Source: a virus
Taxonomy: Duplodnaviria; Heunggongvirae; Uroviricota; Caudoviricetes
IMG/VR virus record: IMGVR_UViG_3300033075_000957
Coordinates: 1 to 64,000 of that record
Length of the DNA: 64,000 bases
Strand: one strand, 5' to 3'
In this document: piece by piece, positions 4,883 through 49,063 of the stretch
Layout of the letters: each line of letters begins with the position of its first letter
Numbering within the stretch: position 1 is the stretch's first letter
Made by a program: the position numbers and the translations under genes
The notes under the pieces: model-generated
What the model was told of the DNA's origin: nothing
Database searches by the model: none
The model's input: the letters and a program-made list of their open reading frames with translations, nothing else

Positions 4883-4955
4883 TCCCTGATAACTCAGTTG
4901 GTAGAGTACCGAACTTTTAATTCGGGAGTCGTCGGTTCGAGCCCGACTCGGGGAA
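4883..4955 (+). tRNA. tRNA-Lys (anticodon TTT)
   Basis: Hand-folded cloverleaf: acceptor TCCCTGA/TCGGGGA, D-arm ACTC-AGTTGGTA-GAGT, anticodon stem CCGAA/TTCGG with loop CTTTTAA, T-arm GTCGG-TTCGAGC-CCGAC; 73 nt. Confidence 0.8.
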
Positions 4956-5081
4956 TTTGTACATGCAAAATTAGAGAACAAAATGTCCTACGTCATAGTA
5001 TCCAAAACTTCTAATCAGATGCTATCTCACTGGGATCAGTGTTTGAAAGTATAATCAATCGAGAAAGCAGTCGTTGTTTAT

Positions 5082-13455: not shown

Positions 13456-13975
13456 AGAAATTTCCAACGCTTTACATTTTGCAATCCAAGCACATAATGG
13501 ACAAAAACGTTCTCACGGAGGACCGTATGTCCTGCATGTTATTCGCGTAGCCGAACGCGTTTCAGCTAATCTTCAAATTGATATGCTGAATAATTGGCAC
13601 GTTGGTAATAACGGATGGTATACCGATACCATTTGTGCCGCTTTATTACATGACACGTTAGAAGATACCACTGTAACGAGCAATGATTTAAAATCACGTT
13701 TTGGAGAACGTGTAGCAACGATGGTAAAAAGTCTAACAACTGACGGTTTAAATAACGAAGAACTTTATTCAAAAGCAAAAACGTGGCATTATTATACTCG
13801 TATTATTAAATTAGCAGATATTTATGATAACGTAAAAGAAGGCCAGTTATCATGGAGTTCTGAAAGAATTAAACGTTATGCGGCCAATAAAGCCGATTTT
13901 ATTCGTAGTTGTTTTAATGTTGCTGATGTCGGTTATAATGAAACACTTCGATTATGTGAGGAATCTCAATTATGA
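13442..13975 (+). CDS. HD-domain phosphohydrolase (RelA/SpoT-type HD)
   Basis: HGGPYVLHVIRVAE .. AALLHDTLEDT is a His..HD motif. Confidence 0.6.
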   Translation: MIVNKEISNALHFAIQAHNGQKRSHGGPYVLHVIRVAERVSANLQIDMLNNWHVGNNGWYTDTICAALLHDTLEDTTVTSNDLKSRFGERVATMVKSLTTDGLNNEELYSKAKTWHYYTRIIKLADIYDNVKEGQLSWSSERIKRYAANKADFIRSCFNVADVGYNETLRLCEESQL

Positions 13976-15144
13976 GCAGTCTAATCGTTCAAATTCGTAC
14001 TATTACCAATATTCGTCCGCATAAAAATCCGGAAAAGACTCGAATAGAGATTGCGGAAATTGATGGATGGCAATCCATTATTCCCAAGGGACAATATGCC
14101 GTTGGCGATAATGTCGTATTTATTCCGCCCGATTCGGTAATGACCAAAGAAATCTCCGATAAGTTAGGAGTTACTAACTATTTAAAGAATGGTCGAGTAA
14201 CGTCAATCAAACTCGGCGGAGAAATGTCTTTTGGTATTATTGTAAAACCTGATCAGAATTGGCCGGTTGGCACCGACGTTGCTGAGCACTATCAGATTAC
14301 AAAATACGAGCCGCCAATAGTAACTCGTAATGGTAATTGTCCTCCCGGTACGGCTCCGCAAAATCCTCGATTCTTCCATAAATTTACAGATATTGAGAAT
14401 ATTCGACACTTTAAGACTGTTTTGGACGGTCACGAAGTAATATGTCTCGAAAAGATTCACGGAGCAAACTGGCGGGCATGTCTTGGATATAATGAGAACG
14501 GTACGAAAGAGTTCGTAGTGGGTTCACGCAATACCGTTCGTAAGGTACCTACTAAAAAGATTTCGGTCTTACCGTGTAATAAACTTCACGCATTATACTT
14601 AAAGTTACGTCGTTTTGTTGGTTTTGAGAAGATGGAAGAGGTGTTTGATATTAATGCGGCACGCAAGGATTGGTATCATCATGTTCTGTGTAATCAGGCA
14701 GAGTTTGGTAATGTCCAAAAAATGATCGAAGATATATCGCGTCATACTGGTGCTATGAATGTAGCGTTATATGGCGAAACGTTTGGCGATGGTATCCAAA
14801 ACATGACGTATGGAAAAACCAATGGCCAGATGGGTTTTGTCGCTTTTGCATTGGCAGTTGATTACAAATACGTTGATTATGATGTATTCATCAATTGGTG
14901 CGTAATGTACGATATACCTACTGCACCACTTGTGTACCGTGGACCGTATCTCTTCGATACTATACGATCATTATCGAGCGGTAAGTCGCTGATTAAAGAT
15001 GCGAATCATATTCGTGAAGGCGTAGTGGTTTTGCCCACAAAAGAAATGCATGGCCCATCTGGTAGAATTATTTTCAAATCAATTAACGATGATTATCTGC
15101 TAAGTAAGGAATCGGGTAAGATTAGTGATAGTACTGATTCGTAA
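13972..15144 (+). CDS. RNA ligase (Rnl2-like nucleotidyltransferase) with N-terminal tRNA-binding OB-fold (Trbp111/CsaA/Myf-like) domain
   Basis: N-terminus VQIRTITNIRPHKNPEKTRIEIAEIDG..YAVGDNVVFIPPDSVM matches the tRNA-binding-domain pattern (V..HP.ADKL..VDVG..IVSGA.N...GD.V.VA); EKIHGANW matches ligase motif I (KxHG, as in T4 Rnl2 KIHGTN). Confidence 0.6.
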   Translation: MSSLIVQIRTITNIRPHKNPEKTRIEIAEIDGWQSIIPKGQYAVGDNVVFIPPDSVMTKEISDKLGVTNYLKNGRVTSIKLGGEMSFGIIVKPDQNWPVGTDVAEHYQITKYEPPIVTRNGNCPPGTAPQNPRFFHKFTDIENIRHFKTVLDGHEVICLEKIHGANWRACLGYNENGTKEFVVGSRNTVRKVPTKKISVLPCNKLHALYLKLRRFVGFEKMEEVFDINAARKDWYHHVLCNQAEFGNVQKMIEDISRHTGAMNVALYGETFGDGIQNMTYGKTNGQMGFVAFALAVDYKYVDYDVFINWCVMYDIPTAPLVYRGPYLFDTIRSLSSGKSLIKDANHIREGVVVLPTKEMHGPSGRIIFKSINDDYLLSKESGKISDSTDS

Positions 15145-19810: not shown

Positions 19811-20100
19811 TGCTAACCGCTAAACAAGCACACGAAATATCAACTATGTCATCACAAGAAGATCGAATCGAAATTATTTGGCAGGAACTTTCTAAAGATA
19901 TTGAAAAAGCCTGTCGTGAACGTCTTCTTTGTATAAGCCATCCATACAGAACTTATGCCTATCCAATAGGAGGATTTAAATGGAAATCTTCCGAAAAGAA
20001 AGAAGTTTTCCGTCGTCTAAAAGAATTGAATTACAAAGTAACCAGAACACCCCTGTTTCTTGGGTTATATGATTTTAGGATTAGTTGGTCAAACACTTGA
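19810..20100 (+). CDS. hypothetical protein
   Basis: ORF 96 aa. Confidence 0.4.
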   Translation: MLTAKQAHEISTMSSQEDRIEIIWQELSKDIEKACRERLLCISHPYRTYAYPIGGFKWKSSEKKEVFRRLKELNYKVTRTPLFLGLYDFRISWSNT

Positions 20101-21018
20101 TAATTTCGGTCTTGTTGTTTCTTCCCATTTAACAACTACGTTGTAACCAAGAGATTTGATGTTTTCAAGACGATCGAGAGTTTCTTGATATAAGTCACCA
20201 AATGTTTTATTGGTATGCAAATTAATGTCTTTAGGATTAAAATAGTCCGGATGACCGTGCCAATACATTCCCAAATACTCATAGACCGTATTTGTTTTTG
20301 GGTCGAAGCCATCTACTCTATATTTTGTGTTTGGAATCCAGTATTCTCTTCTAGGAATGTCTAATAAATTAAGCCATTGCGTTGCGGATTTTGAAGAAGT
20401 GTGGTTCGCACATCTTGGACAACCAGAGCCATTTTGAAGATGATTATGGGCTTTGGTTTCAAAAGGACCGTGTTCTTGGCAAACTATCCATATCTTTTTA
20501 TGAGCCCCTTGATAGTCAACTAATTCATACCCATATATATCGCCATGAATCGCTTTTGCTTCGTTGATATATTGTTGAGTAGTTTTTCTTGATTTCTTAC
20601 CACAAAATTCGTTAGTACATTTTCGACATTTATAACCAGATAAATGATTTCCGGGCGTTTGTTCAAACACGCCATGATGCTTACACACAATCTTAATCTT
20701 CTTGTGATTGTTGATATATTTTGATAATGAATAATCGTATTCATTTCCATGTACCAATATTGCTTTTTCTATAAAACTTTTGGTATCTATTTTCTGAATA
20801 GATTTGTTTAGACACGATTGTCTATAACAAAATTTACAACCATGCTTTGCCTTCAGATAACGATGAGCAACTGTTTTGTATTTACCATGTTTCGGACAAA
20901 CAACAAAAATTAAAGAATTTTTTGTAAATACCTGTCCTGCAAACTCATATTCATAAGCGTTTTGAAAACGTTGCTTGGCTGTGTTTTGAAATAAAATAAA
21001 CGTCTCAATAGTACCCAT
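20089..21018 (-). CDS. homing-endonuclease-like protein: triple Zn-ribbon repeat plus Vsr/PD-(D/E)xK-like nuclease domain
   Basis: Three CxxHGxF..H..GxGCxxC modules; C-terminal YEYLGMYWHG...GYNVVVKWE resembles the DUF559/Vsr endonuclease motif; its own motif ATGTGTATAAGG directly upstream on the minus strand. Confidence 0.55.
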   Translation of the reverse strand: MGTIETFILFQNTAKQRFQNAYEYEFAGQVFTKNSLIFVVCPKHGKYKTVAHRYLKAKHGCKFCYRQSCLNKSIQKIDTKSFIEKAILVHGNEYDYSLSKYINNHKKIKIVCKHHGVFEQTPGNHLSGYKCRKCTNEFCGKKSRKTTQQYINEAKAIHGDIYGYELVDYQGAHKKIWIVCQEHGPFETKAHNHLQNGSGCPRCANHTSSKSATQWLNLLDIPRREYWIPNTKYRVDGFDPKTNTVYEYLGMYWHGHPDYFNPKDINLHTNKTFGDLYQETLDRLENIKSLGYNVVVKWEETTRPKLSSV

Positions 21019-28293: not shown

Positions 28294-29303
28294 AAAAAAT
28301 TATTAGTTTATTGACTAGTCTATTAGTTGTTAGCAGTATCATTGGTTGTCGTCCCTATGATACCCCCGAATACGTTGAGATAAAGCCAAACGAAACCGCT
28401 TTCGCTATTCCAATGGAAGGGAATACTGACGAGCAGAAAAGTTTTGAATCCGAAAACTTTTTGCGGAAAAATATGGTCGCTGCCAAACGGATTGAAGTTC
28501 CACACAGATGGAATAAAACTGGACGGTTTTACTTTAACGGTGACTACATTGATCTCATTCGCGTAGTAACCGTCGATCGTGCTCCGGTAAATCGATACTG
28601 GACTAATGAAAAGAATGATGCAATCCAAGTAGAGACTAATGATTCCGTTGGAATGAGTGTAGATATTACGTGTACAGCGATGATCGAGCAGCCGAATACA
28701 CCGCTCTTTCTGTACCGTTATTCTTCTGGCTCGCTAGCGACAGTAATGGATAACGAAATTCGTGCCAAAATTCAGACCGAACTTACCGAAGAAGTCGCCA
28801 AGTATCCACTAGAACAGGTGAAGGCAAACAAAGGTAAGATTATGGAAGCGGTTCGACCAGAAGTTGTGGCGTTTTTTGCAGAACGCGATGTTACCATTAC
28901 AACTCTTGGTATAGGTGGCGGTTTAAACTATCTGAATCCAAAGATTCAAGAATCAATCGATAAAACCGTGCAGGATCAACAATTAGCTATTAGTGCCGAA
29001 GCACGGTTTCAGGCACAGTTAAAAGAAAATGAAACTACTAAAATTACCGCATTAGCATTAGCAGAAGCTACTAGATCGAAGGCACAAGGAGAGGCCGATT
29101 CTATTAAGATGTTAGCTGATGCTAAGGCTTACGAAATAGATAAGATGAAGCAAAATCCAGAATCGTATGTGCAGCTTAGAAATTTAGAGAATTTTAATCT
29201 ATTAATTTCTCGATGGAACGGAACGCTTCCGGTCTATAATATGAATATGGGAGGGAATGGGACTTTACCCAATATACTCATGAATATGCCAGTTGAGAAA
29301 TAA
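28290..29303 (+). CDS. SPFH/band-7 (prohibitin-like) lipoprotein
   Basis: TTG start (L)KKIISLLTSLLVVSSIIGC lipobox after GGAGAAAA; C-terminal half has band-7 helical repeats (QAQLKENETTKITALALAEATRSKAQGEAD). Confidence 0.5.
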   Translation: MKKIISLLTSLLVVSSIIGCRPYDTPEYVEIKPNETAFAIPMEGNTDEQKSFESENFLRKNMVAAKRIEVPHRWNKTGRFYFNGDYIDLIRVVTVDRAPVNRYWTNEKNDAIQVETNDSVGMSVDITCTAMIEQPNTPLFLYRYSSGSLATVMDNEIRAKIQTELTEEVAKYPLEQVKANKGKIMEAVRPEVVAFFAERDVTITTLGIGGGLNYLNPKIQESIDKTVQDQQLAISAEARFQAQLKENETTKITALALAEATRSKAQGEADSIKMLADAKAYEIDKMKQNPESYVQLRNLENFNLLISRWNGTLPVYNMNMGGNGTLPNILMNMPVEK

Positions 29304-29327
29304 AATAATTTATACATACGTGAAAGC

Positions 29328-29338
29328 GTGTGTATAAT
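29328..29338 (+). promoter_or_regulatory. GTGTGTATAAT promoter-like motif upstream of the Y-RNA-like array
   Basis: Same motif family as upstream of about 11 other genes. Confidence 0.4.
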
Positions 29339-29404
29339 ATTTGGGGCCGAAGATTTTTGCTTATCTCTTGTAATGAAACAGCAATTATCACTATATGCCC
29401 CGTG

Positions 29405-29530
29405 CGAACGGTAGCCGAGCAGTTAGGCGGCAGCAAAAAAGATATCCTTAGTCGCTTATACCCTATTGGGTCGAAGACATAGGATTAACACTGGGGCTGT
29501 TATACGATGGTGCAATTCCATCCCGTTCGA
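29405..29530 (+). ncRNA. tRNA-like module A (acceptor CGAACGG/CCGTTCG, D hairpin GCCG..CGGC, T-arm GATGG-TGCAATT-CCATC) with a ~75-nt insert replacing the anticodon arm
   Basis: Hand fold; the insert contains a CCTAT[TGGGTCGAAGAC]ATAGG hairpin. Confidence 0.4.
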
Positions 29531-29701
29531 TTTGGGCCGAAGATAATCGGTTATCCAACTCTTTTTAGTGTTTGCCCGCAAGGGCTTCCGAGAGTCACTA
29601 TGCCCATTTACCCGTGCTAGGCAATGGTGCCGATCTTTCTTTCATACCGGTTGTTCGTTAGAAAGAAAAGGTAGTTCGATTCTACCAGACGGGGTTTGAT
29701 G

Positions 29702-29816
29702 GTACGTTCCGCTAGGGCGGGAATGGTTTGTCTAATCATGTCCTTTCATGGGCCGAAAGATAAACCTTATCTTATCTGAAAACAAGATTCGGTGGGTTCG
29801 AATCCCACAACGTATC
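29702..29816 (+). ncRNA. tRNA-like module C (acceptor GTACGTT/AACGTAT, hairpin CCGC-TAGG-GCGG, T-arm GTGGG-TTCGAAT-CCCAC) with an insert containing ATGGGCCGAAAGATA
   Basis: Hand fold. Confidence 0.4.
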
Positions 29817-29922
29817 CTTTGGCGAGATAGCTTAATGGTTAGAGCACTAAATCCCCTGAACGAATTATATCCTTATGGGTCGATAGGATAGAGCCATTGT
29901 CTGGTGGAGATAGAGTTTTGAG

Positions 29923-30630
29923 TTATAGTTCTAACTTCTGGTTTATTAAATTTACAATAATTGTTAAAAAGGGTTTTGCGTTCGATTTTTTAAAATATTT
30001 TAATTGAGAACTATCAATAATTACCAATTCAATTTCTTTTTCCAAACACGCCTGAAACTTTCTAGTATCATTGTTTTGAATAGATTTTAATTTTTCTTCA
30101 CCATAAATAGGCTCGTAATGAAAAATGCCATTAAGTTCAAAAGCTAATTTTAAAGAAGGAATATAAATATCTAATTCAGAATTAATAGTATCTTTACGGT
30201 TAAAATGAAATTCTAGATTTGGATAGTGTGCTATTAATTCTTTTTCTAAATATATTTCTAATTTACTACGTCGATATCCAATAGTTTTATGTGTGTTATT
30301 ATAAGTAGTGGCACAAGAAGACGAGCAAAATCGATTTTTACCAATTTTTGCACTAAAAACTCGTGTAAATAGTTTTAAACAGTATGTACATTCATATTGA
30401 AAACAAGAACCAAAATACAAAGATTTGCATTTTTTAGTACAAAACATCATTCTTTTTTTTCTTCTAGAATCGCGTATGCTAGATTTTAATCGATAAATAA
30501 TTTGTTTACATTGAGGACATTTTAAAGATAATTTATGGAAATGCTCAGACTCAAAATACTGATCTTCGGTAAATAATGGAATCATGTGAAGCATATACAC
30601 TAATAGAAATAAAATTTTCAAAACACACAT
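29923..30630 (-). CDS. homing-endonuclease-like protein (Zn-ribbon CxxC repeats plus PD-(D/E)xK-like domain)
   Basis: CPQCKQ..C..C, CTYC..CSSSC modules; ELDIYIPSLKLAFELNG..H resembles a PD-(D/E)xK core; lies between the Y-RNA-like array and the Ro60 gene. Confidence 0.5.
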   Translation of the reverse strand: MCVLKILFLLVYMLHMIPLFTEDQYFESEHFHKLSLKCPQCKQIIYRLKSSIRDSRRKKRMMFCTKKCKSLYFGSCFQYECTYCLKLFTRVFSAKIGKNRFCSSSCATTYNNTHKTIGYRRSKLEIYLEKELIAHYPNLEFHFNRKDTINSELDIYIPSLKLAFELNGIFHYEPIYGEEKLKSIQNNDTRKFQACLEKEIELVIIDSSQLKYFKKSNAKPFLTIIVNLINQKLEL

Positions 30631-30752
30631 TCACCATTTAAATTATTTCCATGTGTTTTATGAATAGATGCAATTATTGTTATACTGAAATAATTGATGG
30701 TGTTAAATAAAAGGTAACGTTTTAGTCCCATAAGGGCAGAAGGATATCGAAT

Positions 30753-32363
30753 ATGGCAAATTACGGAAACAGTCTCAAAAATCGTAAACGCACTCCGATC
30801 ACCGAAGCGGTGCCCGGTACAGCAATGGTGCCAAATAATGGCGGTGGATATGGTTATGTCGTAGACGACTTCATTCGTTTACAACGATTTCTGATTCTCG
30901 GATCGGACGGCGGTACCTACTATGTCGGCGAACGGGAGTTAACGGTTCAGAATGCTGAATGCATTACTAGATGCCTAAATTCTGATTACAAGCGTGCTAT
31001 TGATATGATCGTTAATATTAGCGATCAAGGTCGTGCTCCAAAGAATAGTCCTGCGGTTTTTGCTTTGGCAATGGCCGCTGCTCACGAAGGCAGCAACGCT
31101 CGCGAATGCCGTAAATATGCACTCGCTAACTTAGCCAAGGTCTGTCGTATCGGTACACATCTCTTTGAGTTTACCGAATACGTTACTAAAATGCGTGGAT
31201 GGGGGCGTTTGCTTAGAGACGGAGTTGCTTCGTGGTATACAGATATGGACGAGGAACGCCTTGCCTATCAGGTAATTAAGTACCCACAACGTACTATTAC
31301 TGAAGGTAACGCTTCTTCCGCATGGTCGCATAAGGACATCTTACGGTTATCCCGCCCATCTGGTAATAAAAACCATCAAACTATCTACAATTACATCCAT
31401 TCCGGAGAATTTAAATCTAGAGCAGAATCGCTCGCGATTATTGCTGGAACTGAAAAGATTAAACTGGCAAAAAATATAGATGAATGTGTAAAACTTATTT
31501 CTAAATATAATCTTCCTCATGAAGTTGTACCTAAGCAGTTTGCGAATTCGAAAGAAGTTTGGGAAACTTTGCTACCTAATCTTCCTGCTACTGCCCTGAT
31601 TCGTTCTCTTGGCCGCATGCAATCCTATGGATTATTTGAAAACGGTTCTGAATCTCTTAGGATTGCTTTAGAGAAAATTAGCGATGTAAATTGGTTGAAA
31701 AAGAGCCGTATGCATCCCCTCAATATTCTTATTGCCCAGCGTACCTATACTACTGCACACGGAACAAAAGGAAATCTTACATGGACGCCAAATCCGCAAA
31801 TTACGGAAGCTCTTGAAAAGGCATTCTATAATGCGTTTGACTATGTAGAGCCTTCTGGCAAAAACTTACTAATTGCTGTAGATATTTCTGGTAGTATGAT
31901 ATCTCGTTTTGGTACTTTTAATATTAGTTCCTGCGAAGTTGCGGCTGTTTTAGCTATGGTTGCTGCCCGAAGAGAACCTAGCTCATATATTGTCGGATTC
32001 GCTTCTCAGATTGTTGATCTAAAAATTACTAAAAATGATACTCTCGAATCTGCGTGCAAGAAATGCCAAGGAAACTGGGGTTCAACAAATTGTGCTGCTG
32101 CGATAGATCACGCAATCCAGCATCGTTTAAACGTGGATGCTTTTCTAATCATCACCGACAATGAGTCTAATACCGGTGTGCATCCTGCACAAGCTATTAA
32201 ACAATATAGAAATCAGGTTAACAAACCGAATGCTAAACTGATAAGTTTAGCGACTACAAGTACTCGTACTACAATTAATGATCCTAACGATTTCGATTGC
32301 CTCGATCTTGTCGGATTCGATACTGCGGTACCAGAACTTATCACGAATTTCATTCGCGAATAA
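30753..32363 (+). CDS. rsr: Ro60 ortholog (TROVE domain plus vWA domain; bacterial Rsr-like)
   Basis: 536 aa; N-terminal TROVE-like region (FIRLQRFLILGSDGGTYY); C-terminal vWA domain with MIDAS motif LLIAVDISGSM and ITDNESNTG; the size and architecture match bacterial Rsr. Confidence 0.7.
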   Translation: MANYGNSLKNRKRTPITEAVPGTAMVPNNGGGYGYVVDDFIRLQRFLILGSDGGTYYVGERELTVQNAECITRCLNSDYKRAIDMIVNISDQGRAPKNSPAVFALAMAAAHEGSNARECRKYALANLAKVCRIGTHLFEFTEYVTKMRGWGRLLRDGVASWYTDMDEERLAYQVIKYPQRTITEGNASSAWSHKDILRLSRPSGNKNHQTIYNYIHSGEFKSRAESLAIIAGTEKIKLAKNIDECVKLISKYNLPHEVVPKQFANSKEVWETLLPNLPATALIRSLGRMQSYGLFENGSESLRIALEKISDVNWLKKSRMHPLNILIAQRTYTTAHGTKGNLTWTPNPQITEALEKAFYNAFDYVEPSGKNLLIAVDISGSMISRFGTFNISSCEVAAVLAMVAARREPSSYIVGFASQIVDLKITKNDTLESACKKCQGNWGSTNCAAAIDHAIQHRLNVDAFLIITDNESNTGVHPAQAIKQYRNQVNKPNAKLISLATTSTRTTINDPNDFDCLDLVGFDTAVPELITNFIRE

Positions 32364-32472
32364 TGATATGAGTGCGATTCCGTAACTGAAAAAAAGGATT
32401 TCCTCACGGAGTGCCGAGAAATCGGCAGACACTTTCGGACGGGCCGTGAGATAGGAAAAACATGCACTTATT

Positions 32473-32544
32473 AGGATACTAGTTCACCGGAAGAACGCTC
32501 GCTTGATAAGCGAGAAGTACTTGGTTCAACTCCAAGGTATCCTA
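32473..32544 (+). tRNA. tRNA-Ile (anticodon GAT)
   Basis: Acceptor AGGATAC/GTATCCT, D-arm GTTC-ACCGGAA-GAAC, anticodon stem CTCGC/GCGAG with loop TTGATAA, T-arm CTTGG-TTCAACT-CCAAG; 72 nt. Confidence 0.7.
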
Positions 32545-32548
32545 TGAA

Positions 32549-32634
32549 TACTAGGTGGCCGAGGTTGGTCGATGGCACAAAACTGTTAATTTTGCGGCGA
32601 AAGCCCGTCGTAGGTTCAAATCCTACCCTAGTAG
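32549..32634 (+). tRNA. type-II (long variable arm) tRNA, identity uncertain; the 7-nt loop CTGTTAA reads as anticodon GTT
   Basis: Acceptor TACTAGG/CCTAGTA perfect, D-stem GCC/GGC with 13-nt loop, anticodon stem CAAAA/TTTTG, variable arm CGGCGAAAGCCCGTC, T-arm GTAGG-TTCAAAT-CCTAC; 86 nt. Confidence 0.5.
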
Positions 32635-32720
32635 TTTAATCAGCAATGTGCTGATAAATTTGCGGCATATGCCGCGTTCACCCTTGTTGCTTATGGCAAC
32701 AATATTGAAAGGATAGTAGT

Positions 32721-33116: not shown

Positions 33117-33782
33117 ATGATTAAAACTTTACAAGGACCACTTCTTTTAGTTGGTGATATTCATGGTAATTTTGATTATGTAACAAATTTACATGAAGAA
33201 TATTCAGATTCGACTATTATTCAAATCGGTGATTTTGGTATTGGGTTTGGTAATGATGTTCCGAATCAATTTGATAAATATAATCGTTTATATTGGATTG
33301 CAGGAAATCATGATGATAGAAACCAATGCGTTCGACATTCTGGATATTTAGGACATTATGGATGGTTTCAGTGGTATCCACTCGTCGATCATCCTAAATC
33401 ATTTAAAGTCTTTTATATTTCTGGTGCATGGTCAATTGACAGAGCAGTTCGTACGCCGGGAATAGACTGGTGGCATTACGAAGAACTTTCTCGGGATGAA
33501 ATGGTTGCATGTCAAGAAATGTACAATGAAGTTAAGCCAGATATCGTAATTTCTCACGATAGTCCATCTAGTTGCTGGTCAGAATTGATTAAAAGAACTA
33601 AGATGCTTTTTGGTGATCAGCAAAGACTTACACGAACAGGAGAATTCTTAGAGCAACTCAGATTGCTTCATTCGCCCTCGCGATGGTATTTTGGACACTA
33701 TCATCCACCACGCAATCTGTCTTTCATACAAAATGAAATTGAATATAATTGTTTACGAATTAATGGGATATCTTTTTTATAG
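33117..33782 (+). CDS. calcineurin-like metallophosphoesterase
   Basis: GDIHGN .. IQIGDFG .. WIAGNHDD matches the phosphoesterase motifs. Confidence 0.65.
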   Translation: MIKTLQGPLLLVGDIHGNFDYVTNLHEEYSDSTIIQIGDFGIGFGNDVPNQFDKYNRLYWIAGNHDDRNQCVRHSGYLGHYGWFQWYPLVDHPKSFKVFYISGAWSIDRAVRTPGIDWWHYEELSRDEMVACQEMYNEVKPDIVISHDSPSSCWSELIKRTKMLFGDQQRLTRTGEFLEQLRLLHSPSRWYFGHYHPPRNLSFIQNEIEYNCLRINGISFL

Positions 33783-35194: not shown

Positions 35195-36637
35195 ATGAAC
35201 GAATCATTTCTTTGTTTCGATAGCTATAAACTGAGTCATCATGCTATGTACCCTCCGGGTTTAACGAATATGTATTCGTATCTAGAGACACGGAATCCCT
35301 CATCTTATTCAGATAAAACGCTTTTCTTTGGTTTACAAGGAATTCTTAATAAACTTGCAGAACCATTATCAGCATTATATATCGAAGACCTGAGACGTTT
35401 TTGTTCTGTACATTTTGGCTCTACTGAAGTTTTTAATCGGCAATGGAGACGTTTATTCGAAAAACATCATTATTGGCCAGTTCGAATTAAAGCTGTTCCA
35501 GAAGGAACATTAGTACCAATCGGCAATGTTTTACTTACTATTGAAAATACAGACCCCGAATTTCCTTGGGTTACAAATCTTCTTGAAACTTTACTACTCC
35601 AAGTTTGGTATCCAACTACTGTTGCAACATATAGTTACGCAGTAAAAAAGATTTGTAAACAATTTCTCTTTGCAACAACCGATACAAATCGCATCGATGG
35701 TCATTTACAATTCATGCTGCATGACTTTGGTTTTCGTGGTGCCAGCAGTTATGAATCAGCAGGAATTGCAGGTGCGGCACATCTTGTATCTTTTTCTGGC
35801 ACCGATACTATCGCAGCATTTGAGTATATTGTCAGAAATTACTCAAATAGCATTAATTTTGATTGGAAGACGGATTGCGTAGGATTTAGCATTCCCGCTA
35901 CCGAGCATTCGATTATGACTATGCTGGGCGAAGAGGGAGAAGTACAAACGATACAGAATGTGTTAAATGCCTACCCAACAGGGCTCTTGGCGATGGTTAT
36001 TGATTCCTATGACCCTTATCAATTCATTGATAAGTTAGCAGAAAACTTTCGTAAAGAAGTTGAAACTCGTCAAGGAAGAATTGTTCTTCGTCCAGACAGC
36101 GGCGATCCTATTGAAGTTAGTGTTAAAGTGCTGGAACGCATTGGTCAGTATTTCACACCTACGGTAAATAGTAAGGGTTACCGCGTTCTTCCTGACTATA
36201 TTCGTGTTATTTATGGCGATGGAATCAATATCAATTCGATCAAGAATATCCTAACCGCCATGCAACAAGCAGGATGGGCGGCGGAAAATATAGTCTTCGG
36301 ATGCGGTGGCAAGCTGCTACAGTCCCATAATCGAGATAATTTTGGATTCGCGTTAAAAACGTCATCCGTAATTATAAATGGAAAAACAATTGAGGTATTC
36401 AAAAATCCATCAACACAGATAAATAAAATAAGCAAACGAGGAAGACTAGGCTTAGTCCTAAATGGCGATGGATTTACTACTGTTTCTGAAATACGAGCAG
36501 AAAGAGGCGGAAACTATTTAAGAACAGTTCTTGAAAATGGTAAACTGTTTAATATCGAATCATTTGATACTATTAAAAAGCGAACTCAAGAATGGTTTAG
36601 TTCTGAAAATAAATATTGCGACACTTTTGGCTTTTAA
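35195..36637 (+). CDS. nadV: nicotinamide phosphoribosyltransferase
   Basis: N-terminus FLCFDSYKLSHHAMYPPGLTNMYSYLETR matches the NAMPT signature (DSYK..H...YP); 480 aa. Confidence 0.75.
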   Translation: MNESFLCFDSYKLSHHAMYPPGLTNMYSYLETRNPSSYSDKTLFFGLQGILNKLAEPLSALYIEDLRRFCSVHFGSTEVFNRQWRRLFEKHHYWPVRIKAVPEGTLVPIGNVLLTIENTDPEFPWVTNLLETLLLQVWYPTTVATYSYAVKKICKQFLFATTDTNRIDGHLQFMLHDFGFRGASSYESAGIAGAAHLVSFSGTDTIAAFEYIVRNYSNSINFDWKTDCVGFSIPATEHSIMTMLGEEGEVQTIQNVLNAYPTGLLAMVIDSYDPYQFIDKLAENFRKEVETRQGRIVLRPDSGDPIEVSVKVLERIGQYFTPTVNSKGYRVLPDYIRVIYGDGININSIKNILTAMQQAGWAAENIVFGCGGKLLQSHNRDNFGFALKTSSVIINGKTIEVFKNPSTQINKISKRGRLGLVLNGDGFTTVSEIRAERGGNYLRTVLENGKLFNIESFDTIKKRTQEWFSSENKYCDTFGF

Positions 36638-48076: not shown

Positions 48077-48223
48077 GCTATTGACTGCAATAGCAGTTTA
48101 TCAGTGTGTGGGGTAGCAGCCGCCCGCTTGCTTTGGGAGCAAGTATACGCAAGTGCAATTCTTGCCACATTGACTTTGGGCCAGTAACTCAATATGTAGA
48201 GTGCCGATTTTGCAAATCGGAGG

Positions 48224-48833
48224 TTGCGAAGTCGCATTCGCCTGTGTCCATTGATGATCGGTATTAGAATTAAAGAAAACGATTTGTTTGTTGTTGAACA
48301 CGGCGTTAAAAGACGTGCTGAAAAAGTTTTGTGCAAAGTATGTAATAAAAAATTTATTCGCCGGATTGGAAGGAAAACTAGTAGATGTTCTCGATCTTGT
48401 TTTTATAAAACGACACGTCATAAAAAGACTGTTCTTGAATGTTTCAATTGCCATCAAAAATTTGAAAGATTGCCAAATAAACTAAAGGGTGCTAGGCACG
48501 GTATTTATTTTTGTTCAAGAAAATGCAAAGACTTTGCTCAGAGTTTGCGAGGAAATTGTCCAAAAATTAGACCATCGCATTATGGCACTACAGACGAATA
48601 TTTAGTTAAAGATTTTTATAAAGAGCATTTTCATAAAGGATGTTTGTGCGGAGAAAAAGAATTATCTTTTACAAATCCATCATGTAGACGGAAATCATTC
48701 CAACAATCAATCAGAAAATTTAGAAATCGTCTGTGCTAACTGCCATATTAAACGACATCTGGTGTATAAAAACGGAACTTGGACATATTGTATGTCAAAA
48801 TTAACTCCTAGGGATCAGTTAGATAAAGTTTAA
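48224..48833 (+). pseudogene. HNH homing endonuclease interrupted by a frame change near the A-run 48651-48661
   Basis: CxxC Zn modules in the frame of ORF 48224..48739; the HNH core (LQIHHVDGNHSNNQSENLEIVCANCH) continues in the +1 frame 48606..48833; junction is CLCGEKE | KNYLLQIHH. Confidence 0.5.
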
Positions 48834-48907: not shown

Positions 48908-48940
48908 TAAAAATATTGTCAGACAAACATAATCGTTTTT
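48908..48940 (+). terminator. weak hairpin terminator candidate
   Basis: GTCAGA..TCTGAC stem with a 16-nt loop followed by ATTTT. Confidence 0.25.
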
Positions 48941-49063
48941 CTGACATTTTGCGGGCAGGACAAAGAGTAAGTCGTAACGCTCATAACGTTAAGAACTAGG
49001 TGCGACTCCTAGGCTCCGCAATTGCGAGTAAAATTGATTATAAATTAAACAAGTTTCATAATC

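What the first reader, a model, noticed from the sequence alone, without database searches (positions are those of the whole stretch)
29304..32650. Ro60 (TROVE-vWA) gene preceded by an array of Y-RNA/tRNA-like modules carrying a GGGCCGAAG motif that mimics the metazoan Ro-binding sequence
The 536-aa ORF 30753..32363 has the Ro60/Rsr architecture, a TROVE-like N-terminal region plus a vWA MIDAS motif (DISGSM). The 560-nt non-coding tract upstream (29341..29900) shows the following:
- It is GC-richer than the flanks and starts right after a GTGTGTATAAT promoter-like element.
- It contains five copies of TGGG(C/T)CGA(A)AGA (29342, 29465, 29532, 29750, 29873). Human Y RNAs begin GGCUGGUCCGAAGGU, and that helix is the Ro60 binding site.
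- Several copies have a nearby complementary partner (TATGCCCC at about 29393, TATGCCCA at about 29599) that would form the Ro-type helix with a bulged C.
- Interleaved are three or more tRNA-like modules with T-arms (GTGGGTTCGAATCCCAC and others), D-like hairpins and acceptor-like closing stems but no anticodon arm. This is the architecture described for bacterial YrlA Y RNAs.
- A homing-endonuclease gene (29923..30630, minus) is wedged between the RNA array and the Ro60 gene, and may have truncated a fourth module (the 5' tRNA half at 29821..29847).
- Two genuine tRNAs follow the Ro60 gene, after another small helical element at 32403..32450.
A multi-copy Y-RNA array next to a phage Ro60 is a rarely characterised arrangement and worth examining.
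Basis: partly seen in the sequence, partly recalled or inferred. Interest (0 to 1): 0.85.

Follow-up and report, generated by a model that had tools for sequence, protein, structure and literature searches.

The report
Phage Ro60 with tRNA-shaped Y RNAs
An uncultured phage carries a Ro60 RNA-binding protein gene behind a tightly packed array of six small-RNA modules; four complete ones and one truncated copy carry the Ro60-binding helix, and three of those (two complete, one truncated) are built into a tRNA-shaped scaffold with open tRNA ends, a layout not described for the known bacterial Y RNAs.

Summary
ORF 30753..32363 is a canonical Ro60 (TROVE plus vWA_Ro60; E about 1e-98 to solved Ro60 structures). 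The 29339..29902 tract is a promoter-led array of six abutting modules.

- A and C are simple Y RNAs. Both strands of the Ro helix are kept (GGGCCGAAG ... ACUAUGCCC).
- B and E are tRNA-shaped: 7-bp open acceptor stem, D arm and T arm. The Ro helix is closed by a short loop and placed in, or beside, the anticodon arm.
- D is a tRNA-like element with no Ro motif.
- F is a 5' fragment of an E-type module. It stops just before a low-GC homing-endonuclease gene.

Covariance models built without any window sequence find A, C, B, E and F as the only significant hits in the 64 kb. Covariation is strong.

The motif is the published bacterial Y-RNA motif GNCGAAN0-1G. Phage Ro60 genes with upstream Y-like RNAs are already known.

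What looks new is the tRNA-order topology, a circular permutation of YrlA. It recurs next to Ro60 in roughly a quarter to half of 82 phage loci. A Ro-type hairpin also sits beside the Ro60 ribosome-binding site in 16 of 83 sources. Expression, processing and binding are untested.

The parts
29309..29338 (+). Sigma-70-like promoter candidate: -35 TTTATA/TATACA and -10 TATAAT at 29333-29338. It would start transcription at about 29344-29345, the first G of module A.
   Evidence: Consensus scan gives 10 of 12 matches. The related locus L001 has TATAAT at the same distance before its first GGGCCGAAG. L048 has a perfect TTGACA-N-TATAAT before its array. Consensus match only; such sites are not enriched over shuffles.
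29339..29404 (+). Module A, a simple Y RNA. Lower helix GGGGC/GCCCC, internal loop CGAAG / CACUAUAU, upper stem GAUUUUUGC/GCAAUUAUC, then UUAUC and a loop.
   Evidence: Model R3, built without window or L001 sequences, scores 35.2 bits, E = 1.5e-5. The unconstrained MFE gives this fold, z = -2.18. The family structure covaries: score 0.539 against 0.10-0.14 for slid controls.
29405..29529 (+). Module B, a tRNA-shaped Y RNA. Acceptor CGAACGG/CCGUUCG, D arm, stem GCAGC/GCUGU in the anticodon-stem position, and T arm GAUGG-UGCAAUU-CCAUC. The anticodon-position stem extends into an arm (AUCCU/AGGAU, GUC/GAC) that ends in the Ro helix ACCC-UAUU-GGGU followed by CGAAG.
   Evidence: Model R2, built from 14 other loci, scores 38 bits, E = 2.5e-7. 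The MFE equals this fold, z = -2.58. Against its L001 orthologue, 33 pairs are 95.5% paired, with 13 compensatory double changes. The Rfam tRNA model does not hit it.
29530..29610 (+). Module C, a simple Y RNA. GGGC/GCCC, CGAAG / ACUAU, upper stem GAUAAUCGG/CCGAGAGUC, GUUAUC, and a loop holding the hairpin GCCC-GCAA-GGGC.
   Evidence: R3 scores 29 bits, E = 3.4e-4. There is a weak match (16 bits) to Rfam RF01656, a nematode sRNA family whose members I recall to be stem-bulge RNAs, the nematode Y-RNA homologues. MFE z = -1.77.
29611..29695 (+). Module D, a tRNA-like element without a Ro motif. It has a 5-bp acceptor, a small D hairpin GGCA-AUGG-UGCC, a stem of about 8 bp with an inner hairpin in place of the anticodon arm, and T arm GGUAG-UUCGAUU-CUACC. 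Status unclear: pseudo-tRNA or processing spacer.
   Evidence: ARAGORN calls it tRNA-Glu(UUC), 84 nt, but with a mismatched anticodon stem. The Rfam tRNA model gives no hit even at E <= 10. MFE z = -2.40. It is absent from L001.
29702..29816 (+). Module E, a tRNA-shaped Y RNA. Acceptor GUACGUU/AACGUAU, D hairpin CCGC-UAGG-GCGG, and a Y arm inserted after the D arm (GGUUUGUCU/AGAUAAACC; Ro helix GUCC-UUUCAU-GGGC, then CGAAAG). These are followed by UUAUC, a hairpin, and T arm GUGGG-UUCGAAU-CCCAC.
   Evidence: R2 scores 42.7 bits, E = 1.7e-8. The MFE equals this fold, z = -3.18. The L001 orthologue (821-944) passes the Rfam tRNA gathering score at 47.2 bits and scores 81.7 bits with R2.
29821..29902 (+). 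Module F, a truncated E-type module. It has acceptor 5' strand GCGAGAU, a canonical D arm AGCUUAAUGGUUAGAGCA, a linker, and Ro helix AUCC-UUAU-GGGU followed by CGAUAGG. It lacks GUUAUC, the hairpin, the T arm and the acceptor 3' strand.
   Evidence: R2 scores 28 bits, E = 8e-5, with 47 model positions deleted. It does not fold better than shuffles, z = -0.37. No T arm or AUCUCGC lies on the far side of the endonuclease gene.
29923..30630 (-). Free-standing homing-endonuclease-like gene (235 aa) between the array and Ro60, probably a secondary insertion.
   Evidence: PHROG HNH endonuclease 5.1e-10 and homing endonuclease 1.2e-6; no Pfam hit. GC is 0.24-0.27 against 0.46 in the array. L001 has a different HNH gene, on the other strand, at the same place.
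30725..30744 (+). Hairpin in the Ro60 leader: GUCC-CAUAA-GGGC followed by AGAAGGA, which is the Shine-Dalgarno sequence. It resembles the loop-capped Ro helix of module E, but has A where the motif has C. It is a candidate autoregulatory Ro60 site.
   Evidence: Sequence. It is conserved in L001 as GCCCC-ACA-GGGGC|AGAAGGA. Such capped helices with (C/A)GA(A/U) lie within 70 nt of the Ro60 start in 16 of 83 sources, against about 1.2 expected. Function is inferred.
30753..32363 (+). Ro60/Rsr orthologue, 536 aa: a TROVE HEAT-repeat ring plus a vWA domain with MIDAS motif DISGSM.
   Evidence: Pfam TROVE 5.6e-35 and vWA_Ro60 1.7e-45. PDB sequence matches: 9nen 1.7e-98, Xenopus 1yvp 8e-98, D. radiodurans Rsr 2nvo 1.5e-90. 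More than 1000 homologues were found.
32403..32450 (+). Stem-loop after the Ro60 stop codon (CUCACGG ... CCGUGAG enclosing UGCCGA-GAAA-UCGGCA). Role unresolved; it is not a Y module.
   Evidence: The fold of 32364-32471 has z = -2.84. R1 does not hit it. blastn finds no counterpart in any related locus. No U tract follows.
32472..32634 (+). tRNA-Ile(GAU) 32472-32545 and tRNA-Asn(GUU) 32549-32634. The latter is 86 nt with a long variable arm.
   Evidence: ARAGORN; Rfam tRNA 59.7 and 51 bits. The same 86-nt tRNA-Asn follows Ro60 in L001.

Best explanation
This is a phage Ro60-Y RNA locus.

A host-type promoter at about 29309-29338 is proposed to drive one roughly 560-nt non-coding precursor that holds six abutting modules. 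Four complete modules (A, B, C, E) and one truncated module (F) carry the Ro60-binding element. That element is a short G-C helix (GGGY/RCCC) followed on the 5' strand by unpaired CGAA(A)G. It is the published GNCGAAN0-1G motif, to which the phage Ro60 ring is expected to bind.

- A and C are simple Y RNAs whose own 5' and 3' ends form the Ro helix.
- B and E carry the same helix closed by a 4-6-nt loop and built into a tRNA-like body with a 7-bp open acceptor stem, D arm and T arm.
- In B the Y arm replaces the anticodon loop. In E it is inserted between the D arm and a following hairpin.
- This is the gene order of a tRNA, and a circular permutation of the known bacterial YrlA.

The modules abut with 0-6 nt between them. 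I therefore infer that host RNase P and tRNA 3'-end enzymes cut at B, D and E. That would release B and E with tRNA-like ends, able to receive CCA, and would at the same time define the ends of A and C.

The resulting Ro60-Y RNPs would act as in Deinococcus, Salmonella and Thermus phage phiLo. The second, tRNA-like or loop module would tether or gate Ro60 towards a host partner such as PNPase or another tRNA-binding enzyme. This would redirect decay or repair of structured RNA during infection.

Shown: the protein family, the motif, the folds, their covariation, the adjacency and strand, and recurrence in other phages. Inferred: transcription, the cleavage sites, Ro60 binding, the partner and the benefit to the phage.
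For: **Ro60 identity.**

**Motif.** It is clustered far beyond chance. It equals the Rsr-binding motif GNCGAAN0-1G of Chen et al. 2014 (PMC4201824).

**Simple Y structure.** In 32 sequences, 18 pairs give a covariation score of 0.539, against 0.10-0.14 for slid controls. 140 cells carry double changes.

**Independent detection.**
- R3 (no window or L001 seeds) finds only A and C in the 64 kb.
- R2 (14 seeds from other loci) finds only E, B and F. Genuine tRNAs in the window score <= 16.4 bits.

**Unbiased structure prediction.** RNAalifold on the 14 seeds predicts the 7-bp acceptor, the capped 4-bp Ro helix and the T stem, with only one gapped cell in the outermost acceptor pair. Across 64 distinct R2 hits, 97.5% of cells are paired and covariation is 0.835.

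**Module B against its L001 orthologue.** 13 compensatory double changes in 33 pairs.

**Single-sequence folds.** Unconstrained MFE folds of A, B, C and E reproduce the comparative structures, with z from -1.8 to -3.2.

**Strand and recurrence.** All 122 R1 hits and all 68 R2 hits in the Ro60 loci lie on the Ro60 strand.

**tRNA likeness.** Six relatives of E pass the Rfam tRNA gathering score, with the Y arm treated as an insertion.

**Promoter.** A promoter-like site is conserved before the first module.

**Literature precedents.**
- Phage phiLo Ro60 binds two upstream Y-like RNAs and forms ternary complexes with host PNPase (PMC12135203).
- M. smegmatis YrlA is cut by RNase P and receives CCA (10.1101/312249).
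Against: - There are no expression data, so discrete small RNAs, cleavage sites and Ro60 binding are all inferred.
- The window's B and E fail the Rfam tRNA model. Their D arms and B's T loop (UGCAAUU) are non-canonical, so recognition by RNase P is not assured.
- Many related arrays are runs of simple Y RNAs with no tRNA-like module between them (for example L048). tRNA-type punctuation therefore cannot be the general processing route.
- The whole array does not fold better than shuffles (z = -0.86).
- The promoter is only a consensus match, and such matches are not enriched.
- The B-type layout, with the Y arm in place of the anticodon loop, is known from just two loci. A metagenome pattern scan found no more.
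- The alignment used for one search was fitted to the model and so leans towards the structure.
Confidence: 0.78

Rival explanations
1. The tRNA-shaped modules serve mainly as decoys, sensors or repair substrates in a conflict over tRNA. They present a tRNA body to host tRNA-targeting defence nucleases or to tRNA enzymes. The attached Ro helix then recruits phage Ro60, and possibly the phage RNA ligase, to protect or repair RNA. In some relatives the tRNA body includes an anticodon-like loop. This differs from the best explanation in the partner and purpose, not in the anatomy.
For: - In relatives, the hairpin after GUUAUC often has a 7-nt loop of anticodon-loop form: CUGCUAA, CUGUUAA, CUGAUAA, CUCAUAA, CUUUUAA.
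- The window also encodes an RNA ligase (13972-15144), a metallophosphoesterase next to Ro60 (33117-33782) and NAMPT.
- Bacterial Rsr-YrlA sits in an RNA repair operon that responds to damaged tRNA (PMC7790460).
- In coliphage Bas63 a Ro60-like protein counters the Ppl defence system, and the authors suggested that neighbouring tRNA genes might be Y RNAs (PMC11482910).
Against: - The window's own B and E have no anticodon-like 7-nt loop.
- The RNA ligase lies 16 kb away.
- No defence nuclease or target is identified.
- Ppl is thought to act on DNA.
- Everything here is by association.
Confidence: 0.2
2. The tract is not a set of separate small RNAs. It is a long structured leader of the Ro60 mRNA whose repeated Ro-binding sites let Ro60 control its own synthesis or stability.
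For: - No intrinsic terminator is predicted between the array and Ro60.
- In many relatives the last Y module ends within about 50 nt of the Ro60 start.
- A Ro-type capped helix lies at the ribosome-binding site in 16 of 83 sources.
Against: - In the window, a 700-nt endonuclease gene on the opposite strand separates the array from Ro60.
- In some phages the arrays lie downstream of Ro60 (L042, L044).
- tRNA-like bodies with perfect 7-bp acceptor stems and canonical T loops are hallmarks of excised RNAs.
- Characterised bacterial and phiLo Y RNAs are discrete or act as separate molecules (PMC4201824, PMC12135203).
Confidence: 0.1
3. B, D, E and F are decaying phage tRNA genes or pseudogenes that picked up insertions. 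The shared motif is a by-product of tandem duplication and has no function in Ro60 binding.
For: - The window carries 11 tRNA genes, and phage tRNA clusters turn over quickly.
- D lacks the motif, and F is clearly truncated.
- B and E fail the Rfam tRNA model.
Against: - Pseudogenes do not keep helices through compensatory changes. B has 13 double changes in 33 pairs against L001.
- The chimera family keeps 97.5% pairing in 64 distinct copies from about 40 loci.
- The chimeras occur only next to Ro60 and on its strand.
- The motif is the experimentally supported Rsr-binding motif (PMC4201824).
Confidence: 0.04

Closest known systems
Bacterial and phage YrlA Y RNAs (Rfam RF02553; Chen et al. 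2014; structure by Wang et al. 2018)
   Same: - Encoded next to Ro60 on the same strand.
- Carry the GNCGAAN0-1G motif.
- Have a YUAY/GUUAUC element after the Ro stem.
- Have tRNA-like T and D arms and an acceptor-like stem.
- YrlA-type modules do occur in sister phage loci, with sub-threshold RF02553 hits (L062 49.6 bits, L042 41.2 bits).
   Different: - YrlA has its 5' and 3' ends in the Ro stem, the T arm before the D arm, and a closed acceptor hairpin. The literature describes it as resembling a circularly permuted tRNA.
- B and E have tRNA gene order, open acceptor ends and a loop-capped Ro helix.
- RF02553 gives no hit in the window's array even at E <= 10.
- Both strands of the Ro helix are recognisable here. 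Only the 5' strand is recognisable in Salmonella and M. smegmatis YrlA (PMC4201824).
Metazoan Y RNAs and nematode stem-bulge RNAs (RF00019, RF01656)
   Same: - Terminal helix with GG(U/G)CCGAAG on the 5' strand and ACUUG(A/C)CC on the 3' strand, then an upper stem and GUUAUC. Compare human Y1 GGUCCGAAGGUAGUGAGUUAUC ... CACUUGACU (recalled from memory).
- Two sister modules pass the RF01656 gathering score (L044 40.2 bits, L064 38.1 bits).
   Different: - Bacterial-type promoter, no 3' oligo-U/La site, and arranged in tandem arrays.
- The window's A and C have ACUAUGCCC in place of ACUUGCCC.
- RF00019 does not hit.
- The window's C scores only 16 bits on RF01656.
Thermus phage phiLo Ro60 with Yrl1 and Yrl2 (NAR 2025, PMC12135203)
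   Same: - A phage Ro60 gene with more than one Y-like RNA directly upstream, identified through the CGAA motif.
- Shown there to bind the phage Ro60 and to form complexes with host PNPase.
   Different: - phiLo has two simple stem-bulge-stem RNAs, and no tRNA-like module is reported.
- Its Ro60 is only distantly related to this one (E = 2e-5 against 9kop/9l5y, compared with 1e-98 to vertebrate Ro60).
[quoted passage not shown] 2014)
   Same: The end state is a Ro-binding module joined to a tRNA-like body with free acceptor ends.
   Different: In M. smegmatis this state is reached by cutting the closed acceptor loop of a permuted RNA, which leaves two pieces. In B and E it is encoded directly as one chain, because the Ro stem is capped.
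D. radiodurans Yrn1
   Same: - Both strands of the Ro helix are retained.
- It contains a T-arm-like stem-loop.
- It tethers Rsr to PNPase.
   Different: - Its ends lie in the Ro stem.
- It has only partial D-like features and no acceptor stem with free ends.
- It is a single gene, not part of an array of this kind.

Membership tests
Ro60 / Rsr protein | TROVE (HEAT-repeat ring) domain | tested here: met
   PF05731, 5.6e-35, residues 27-329.
Ro60 / Rsr protein | C-terminal vWA domain with MIDAS motif DxSxS | tested here: met
   PF25045, 1.7e-45. DISGSM; D377, S379 and S381 are invariant among 31 homologues.
Ro60 / Rsr protein | Full-length similarity to Ro60 proteins of solved structure | tested here: met
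   9nen 1.7e-98, 1yvp 8e-98, 2nvo 1.5e-90, each over about 510 residues.
Y RNA (Ro60-bound non-coding RNA) | Encoded close to Ro60 on the same strand | tested here: met
   The array lies 850-1400 nt upstream on the + strand. All 122 R1 hits and 68 R2 hits in the Ro60 loci are on the Ro60 strand.
Y RNA (Ro60-bound non-coding RNA) | GNCGAAN0-1G motif (PMC4201824) | tested here: met
   A GCCGAAG, B GUCGAAG, C GCCGAAG, E GCCGAAAG. F deviates (GUCGAUAG). D has none.
Y RNA (Ro60-bound non-coding RNA) | Motif sits at the top of a helix formed with a complementary strand, supported by covariation | tested here: met
   The pair next to CGAAG is C-G in 24 and U-A in 7 of 32 sequences. The capped helix pairs 97.3% of cells in 64 copies.
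Y RNA (Ro60-bound non-coding RNA) | Expressed as a discrete small RNA and bound by Ro60 | not testable with these tools
   Needs RNA-seq or northern blots and a binding assay.
YrlA (RF02553) | Score at or above the Rfam gathering cut-off (69 bits) | tested here: not met
   No RF02553 hit in 29250-29950 even at E <= 10. The only hit in the region is a spurious 16.9-bit match over tRNA-Asn.
YrlA (RF02553) | RNA ends in the Ro stem; order T arm, closed acceptor-like hairpin, D arm | tested here: not met
   B and E have the order acceptor 5' strand, D arm, Y arm, T arm, acceptor 3' strand. Their acceptor ends are open.
YrlA (RF02553) | tRNA-like T arm and D arm | tested here: met
   T arms lie at 29506-29522 and 29792-29808, and D hairpins follow each acceptor 5' strand. 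The D arms in the window are non-canonical. Relatives have canonical GUAGCUCAGUUGGUAGAGC.
tRNA (RF00005) | Score at or above the Rfam gathering cut-off (29 bits) | tested here: not met
   B, D and E give no RF00005 hit. The L001 orthologue of E (47.2 bits) and five other relatives do pass.
tRNA (RF00005) | Seven-base-pair acceptor stem closed by the RNA ends, plus a T arm | tested here: met
   B CGAACGG/CCGUUCG; E GUACGUU/AACGUAU. In the family the acceptor pairs 96.4% of cells, and all seven pairs covary.
tRNA (RF00005) | Anticodon stem with a 7-nt loop | tested here: not met
   In B the loop is replaced by the Y arm. In E the hairpin has a 7-10-nt loop without U33/R37 form. Many relatives do have an anticodon-like loop.
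Nematode sbRNA / metazoan Y RNA (RF01656, RF00019) | Rfam gathering score | tested here: not met
   Window module C scores 16 bits against a cut-off of 38, and RF00019 does not hit. Sister modules L044 (40.2) and L064 (38.1) pass RF01656.
HNH / homing endonuclease (ORF 29923..30630) | Profile match to an endonuclease family | tested here: inconclusive
   PHROG 559 HNH endonuclease 5.1e-10, and PHROGs 3339 and 9084 homing endonuclease at about 1e-6. There is no Pfam match, and catalytic residues were not examined.

The most novel reading that the evidence does not exclude
tRNA-order Y RNAs are an undescribed and widespread class of phage RNA. They are the unpermuted counterpart of YrlA, and plausibly its ancestor. 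The steps would be:
1. A tRNA acquired a loop-capped Ro60-binding arm beside or in place of its anticodon arm.
2. Tandem duplication in arrays like this one, followed by loss of the outer halves, produced the circularly permuted YrlA.

With free acceptor ends, these RNAs would be matured like tRNAs and could receive CCA. That would place Ro60 on a molecule that tRNA enzymes, or tRNA-directed defence nucleases, treat as a tRNA.

In addition, phage Ro60 genes would carry a miniature copy of the same Ro-binding hairpin at their ribosome-binding site, giving translational autoregulation by Y-RNA mimicry.
Probability: 0.4. Interest if true: 0.75.

Novelty: new variant of a known kind. Interest (0 to 1): 0.62.

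Why it matters
How a tRNA-like fold became joined to a Ro60-binding site, and what that fold is for, are open questions for Y RNAs. Chen et al. 2014 and Wang et al. 2018 both raise them.

These phage loci hold three forms side by side: simple Y RNAs, YrlA-type permuted forms, and tRNA-order forms with free acceptor ends. Together they offer a concrete evolutionary series and testable molecules.

- **tRNA biochemistry.** If B and E are matured by RNase P and receive CCA, Ro60 would be physically coupled to tRNA biochemistry in infected cells. That bears on recent hints that phage Ro60 counters host defence.
- **Autoregulation.** The Ro-type hairpin at the Ro60 ribosome-binding site, if functional, would to my knowledge be the first autoregulatory circuit proposed for Ro60.
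- **Annotation.** Two of the three covariance models built here flag more than 180 module hits, nearly all unannotated (122 simple-Y hits and 68 chimera hits, with some overlap). Standard tools miss them or call them odd tRNAs.

Tried and rejected
- **Near-identity search.** 29250-32700 against GenBank phages gave no match. The nearest cultured Ro60 proteins are <= 42% identical and come from actinophages.
- **Related loci from one protein.** The single-protein search of viral contigs found nothing. An alignment-based query was needed.
- **Rfam on the array.** No Y_RNA, YrlA or tRNA hit. The YrlA hit at 32579-32696 is a spurious 16.9-bit match over tRNA-Asn.
- **Folding the whole array.** z = -0.86, uninformative. 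Only module-wise folds are informative.
- **Module C.** My first reading included a hairpin GAUAA-UCGG-UUAUC. I dropped it in favour of the stem GAUAAUCGG/CCGAGAGUC, which is supported by comparison.
- **Module D as a true tRNA-Glu.** Rejected because of the mismatched anticodon stem and the absence of an Rfam hit.
- **More B-type relatives.** The pattern TTGGGYCGAAGN5RGRTTAAC gave 13 metagenome matches, none recognised by R2, and no viral match.
- **The chimera in cultured phages.** Streptomyces Karp, Mycobacterium Farewell and LinStu, and Gordonia Sixama gave only weak R2 cross-hits (<= 32 bits). Simple-Y hits (R1) were found in all four, and sub-threshold YrlA hits in the two that were scanned, Karp and Farewell.
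- **Stem-loop at 32403-32450.** Not a Y module and not conserved anywhere.
- **The missing 3' half of module F.** Not present beyond the endonuclease gene at 30631-30752.
- **tRNA-Asn association.** tRNA-Asn(GUU) next to Ro60 is only mildly over-represented, at 7 of 91 tRNAs. I did not pursue it.

Full report
**What is in the sequence.** The ORF 30753..32363 encodes a 536-aa protein with a TROVE domain (5.6e-35) and the Ro60-type vWA domain (1.7e-45). It aligns over its full length with solved Ro60 structures: 9nen 1.7e-98, Xenopus 1yvp 8e-98 and Deinococcus Rsr 2nvo 1.5e-90. Its MIDAS residues are invariant among 31 homologues. Upstream, GGGYCGA occurs five times on the + strand within 540 nt (29344, 29468, 29534, 29750, 29877). 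Only four other copies occur in the remaining 64 kb on either strand. From the shuffle mean of 6.66 per window I estimate about 0.03 copies expected in such a stretch. The other listed features are all present:
- the complementary strands and three T arms;
- the 5' tRNA half at 29821;
- the minus-strand endonuclease-like ORF;
- the two downstream tRNAs.

GC is 0.46 in the array and 0.24-0.27 in the endonuclease gene.

**Anatomy of the array.** The closest relative is a 14-kb contig whose Ro60 is 74% identical (L001). It has the same order: an SPFH-family gene, a roughly 440-nt non-coding array, a homing-endonuclease gene and Ro60. Its endonuclease is a different one, on the other strand. The two arrays align at 72% identity. 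Reading them together, and folding each module alone, gives six abutting modules.

| Module | Coordinates | Nature |
|---|---|---|
| A | 29339-29404 | Simple stem-bulge-stem RNA; its two ends form the helix GGGGC/GCCCC below unpaired CGAAG, then an upper stem and UUAUC |
| B | 29405-29529 | tRNA-shaped; the stem in the anticodon position continues into an arm tipped by ACCC-UAUU-GGGU followed by CGAAG |
| C | 29530-29610 | Simple stem-bulge-stem RNA; helix GGGC/GCCC below CGAAG, then an upper stem and GUUAUC |
| D | 29611-29695 | tRNA-like, no Ro motif |
| E | 29702-29816 | tRNA-shaped; an arm tipped by GUCC-UUUCAU-GGGC followed by CGAAAG is inserted between the D hairpin and a further hairpin |
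| F | 29821-29902 | Repeats the first half of an E-type module, then stops |

B and E each have a 7-bp acceptor stem formed by the module's ends, a D hairpin and a T arm. ARAGORN calls D tRNA-Glu, but with a mismatched anticodon stem, and Rfam does not call it. Unconstrained minimum-energy folds of A, B, C and E reproduce these structures, with z from -1.8 to -3.2. F does not fold better than shuffles (z = -0.37).

**Independent tests.** I fetched 80 further phage loci that encode Ro60. From them I built three covariance models.
- *Simple Y model.* On 32 sequences, 18 pairs give a covariation score of 0.539, against 0.10-0.14 when partners are slid. The pair next to CGAAG switches between C-G (24) and U-A (7).
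- *Simple Y model rebuilt without window or L001 sequences (R3).* It finds A (35.2 bits, E = 1.5e-5) and C (29 bits, E = 3.4e-4) as the only hits in the window with E <= 1.
- *Chimera model (R2).* I took 14 sequences from other loci. On these, RNAalifold alone predicts the 7-bp acceptor, the 4-bp capped Ro helix and the T stem. Only one gapped cell occurs, in the outermost acceptor pair.

In the window, R2 hits E (42.7 bits, E = 1.7e-8), B (38 bits, 2.5e-7) and F (28 bits, 8e-5). F lacks 47 model positions. Genuine tRNAs score <= 16.4 bits. B and its L001 orthologue share 33 pairs with 13 compensatory double changes.

**How general it is.** The simple Y model gives 122 hits in 56 of 82 loci, often as 2-6 tandem copies. 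The chimera model gives 68 hits in about 40 loci, about 25 of them at >= 60 bits. Every hit lies on the Ro60 strand. Across 64 distinct chimera copies, 97.5% of cells are paired and covariation is 0.835. That alignment was fitted to the model. Six chimeras pass the Rfam tRNA gathering score, with the Y arm treated as an insertion. Two simple modules pass the gathering score of RF01656, a nematode sRNA family that I recall to be stem-bulge RNAs, the nematode Y-RNA homologues. YrlA-type modules also occur in these loci, but below the RF02553 threshold (up to 49.6 bits against 69). Four cultured actinophages gave only weak chimera hits. All four gave simple-Y hits, and the two that were scanned with Rfam gave sub-threshold YrlA hits.

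**Comparison with what is known.** Chen et al. 2014 (PMC4201824) defined GNCGAAN0-1G as the likely Rsr-binding motif. They found YrlA next to Ro60 in 254 bacteria and 22 phages. The window's GCCGAAG, GUCGAAG and GCCGAAAG fit that motif. YrlA has its ends in the Ro stem and a closed acceptor hairpin between the T and D arms. Wang et al. (10.1101/312249) describe it as resembling a circularly permuted tRNA that lacks a free CCA end. They also note that M. smegmatis YrlA is opened by RNase P and receives CCA. B and E are the reverse permutation: tRNA order, free acceptor ends and a capped Ro stem. I found no description of this form in five of my six literature searches. The nearest statement is a preprint's guess that some phage tRNA genes might be Y RNAs (PMC11482910). 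A phage Ro60 with two upstream Y-like RNAs that bind it, and form complexes with host PNPase, has been characterised in Thermus phage phiLo (PMC12135203). The locus type is therefore known, while the topology and the array architecture are variants. Unlike Salmonella and M. smegmatis YrlA, these RNAs keep both strands of the helix. This is what makes them look metazoan.

**Likely mechanism.** A TATAAT box at 29333-29338 is conserved in position in L001. It would start transcription at the first G of A. Modules abut with 0-6 nt between them. Cleavage by RNase P at the 5' ends of B, D and E, together with tRNA 3'-end processing, would therefore release all units and define the ends of A and C. 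Ro60 would bind the GGGY/RCCC helix and the CGAAG strand of A, B, C and E. The remaining module of each RNA would tether or gate Ro60 towards a partner, as in the Deinococcus and phiLo complexes. All of this is inference. Arrays made only of simple Y RNAs, such as L048, show that tRNA punctuation cannot be the only processing route.

**The endonuclease gene and module F.** The ORF 29923..30630 matches phage HNH and homing-endonuclease families. It is far lower in GC than its surroundings. In L001 a different endonuclease gene occupies the same place. F ends 20 nt before this ORF, and its 3' half is not on the other side. This fits an insertion with loss of sequence, but it does not prove the order of events.

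**Context.** The window is a tRNA-rich region with 11 tRNA genes. It also encodes an RNA ligase, NAMPT, ThyX, a RuvB-like ATPase, a ribonucleotide reductase with a LAGLIDADG insert, and a metallophosphoesterase next to Ro60. That is compatible with a role in RNA repair or counter-defence, but it does not establish one.

**Verdict.** It is a new variant of a known kind: a phage Ro60-Y RNA locus in which the Y module is also built into tRNA-order scaffolds.

Noticed in passing
window 30725-30744; also L001 1430-1450, L002 ~4950-4985, L003, L011, L016, L023, L045, L049, L057, L068, L071 just before their Ro60 starts: A loop-capped helix followed by (C/A)GA(A/U), a miniature of the Ro-binding element, lies 0-27 nt before the Ro60 start codon. 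It abuts or overlaps the Shine-Dalgarno sequence. It occurs in 16 of 83 sources, against about 1.2 expected from the rate inside and after the ORF. This suggests that Ro60 represses its own translation by binding a Y-RNA mimic. The window's copy has A in place of the motif's C.
   Followed up: partly
window 32549-32634; L001 3737-3822: The tRNA-Asn(GUU) after Ro60 is 86 nt long. It has a class-II-like long variable arm (GGC-GAAA-GCC) and a long D loop containing UGGUCGAUGG, which is unusual for tRNA-Asn. It is conserved in the 74%-identity relative. Gordonia phage Sixama also has tRNA-Asn(GUU) directly after Ro60. Across the loci the enrichment is only mild, at 7 of 91 tRNAs.
   Followed up: partly
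L023, L024, L027, L028, L032, L034, L042, L045, L048, L059 (hairpin after GUUAUC): In many sister modules the hairpin after GUUAUC has a 3-5-bp stem and a 7-nt loop of anticodon-loop form (CUGCUAA, CUGUUAA, CUGAUAA, CUCAUAA, CUUUUAA, AUGCAAA). Those chimeras are therefore almost complete cloverleaves with an extra arm at the junction of the D and anticodon stems. Whether they decode, or act as decoys, is unknown.
   Followed up: partly
window 48949-49021: A cloverleaf-like element has a CAU anticodon-type loop (AACG-CUCAUAA-CGUU) and a T arm CUAGG-UGCGACU-CCUAG. It lies inside the tRNA cluster but is not called by ARAGORN or by Rfam at the gathering threshold. It is preceded by a long hairpin at 48917-48946. 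It may be a degenerate or unusual tRNA.
   Followed up: partly
window 20295-20344: UUUUUGGGUCGAAG ... AUCCAGUAU gives a weak simple-Y hit (13.6 bits, E = 0.5) on the + strand, inside a minus-strand ORF (20089..21018). This is probably chance.
   Followed up: no
window 29923-30630 (-) and L001 951-1424 (+): Two unrelated homing-endonuclease genes occupy the same slot between the RNA array and Ro60 in the two closest relatives. This points to repeated invasion of this site.
   Followed up: partly
window 60052-62985: The ribonucleotide reductase ORF (977 aa) contains a LAGLIDADG_3 domain at residues 541-589 between reductase domains, which suggests an intein.
   Followed up: no
window 13972-15144, 33117-33782, 35195-36637: An RNA ligase (PF09414 plus the PHA02142 OB fold), a calcineurin-type metallophosphoesterase directly after the Ro60 cluster, and a NAMPT/NAPRTase gene. 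These are possible RNA end-healing and sealing functions and NAD-salvage counter-defence functions. L001 also has NAMPT downstream of Ro60.
   Followed up: no
window 48178-48250: Rfam calls a tRNA here (38.7 bits) that ARAGORN does not list.
   Followed up: no
L042 4780-5500 and L044 4760-5420: In some phages the Y-RNA array lies downstream of Ro60 instead of upstream. It mixes simple, YrlA-type and genuine tRNA units.
   Followed up: partly
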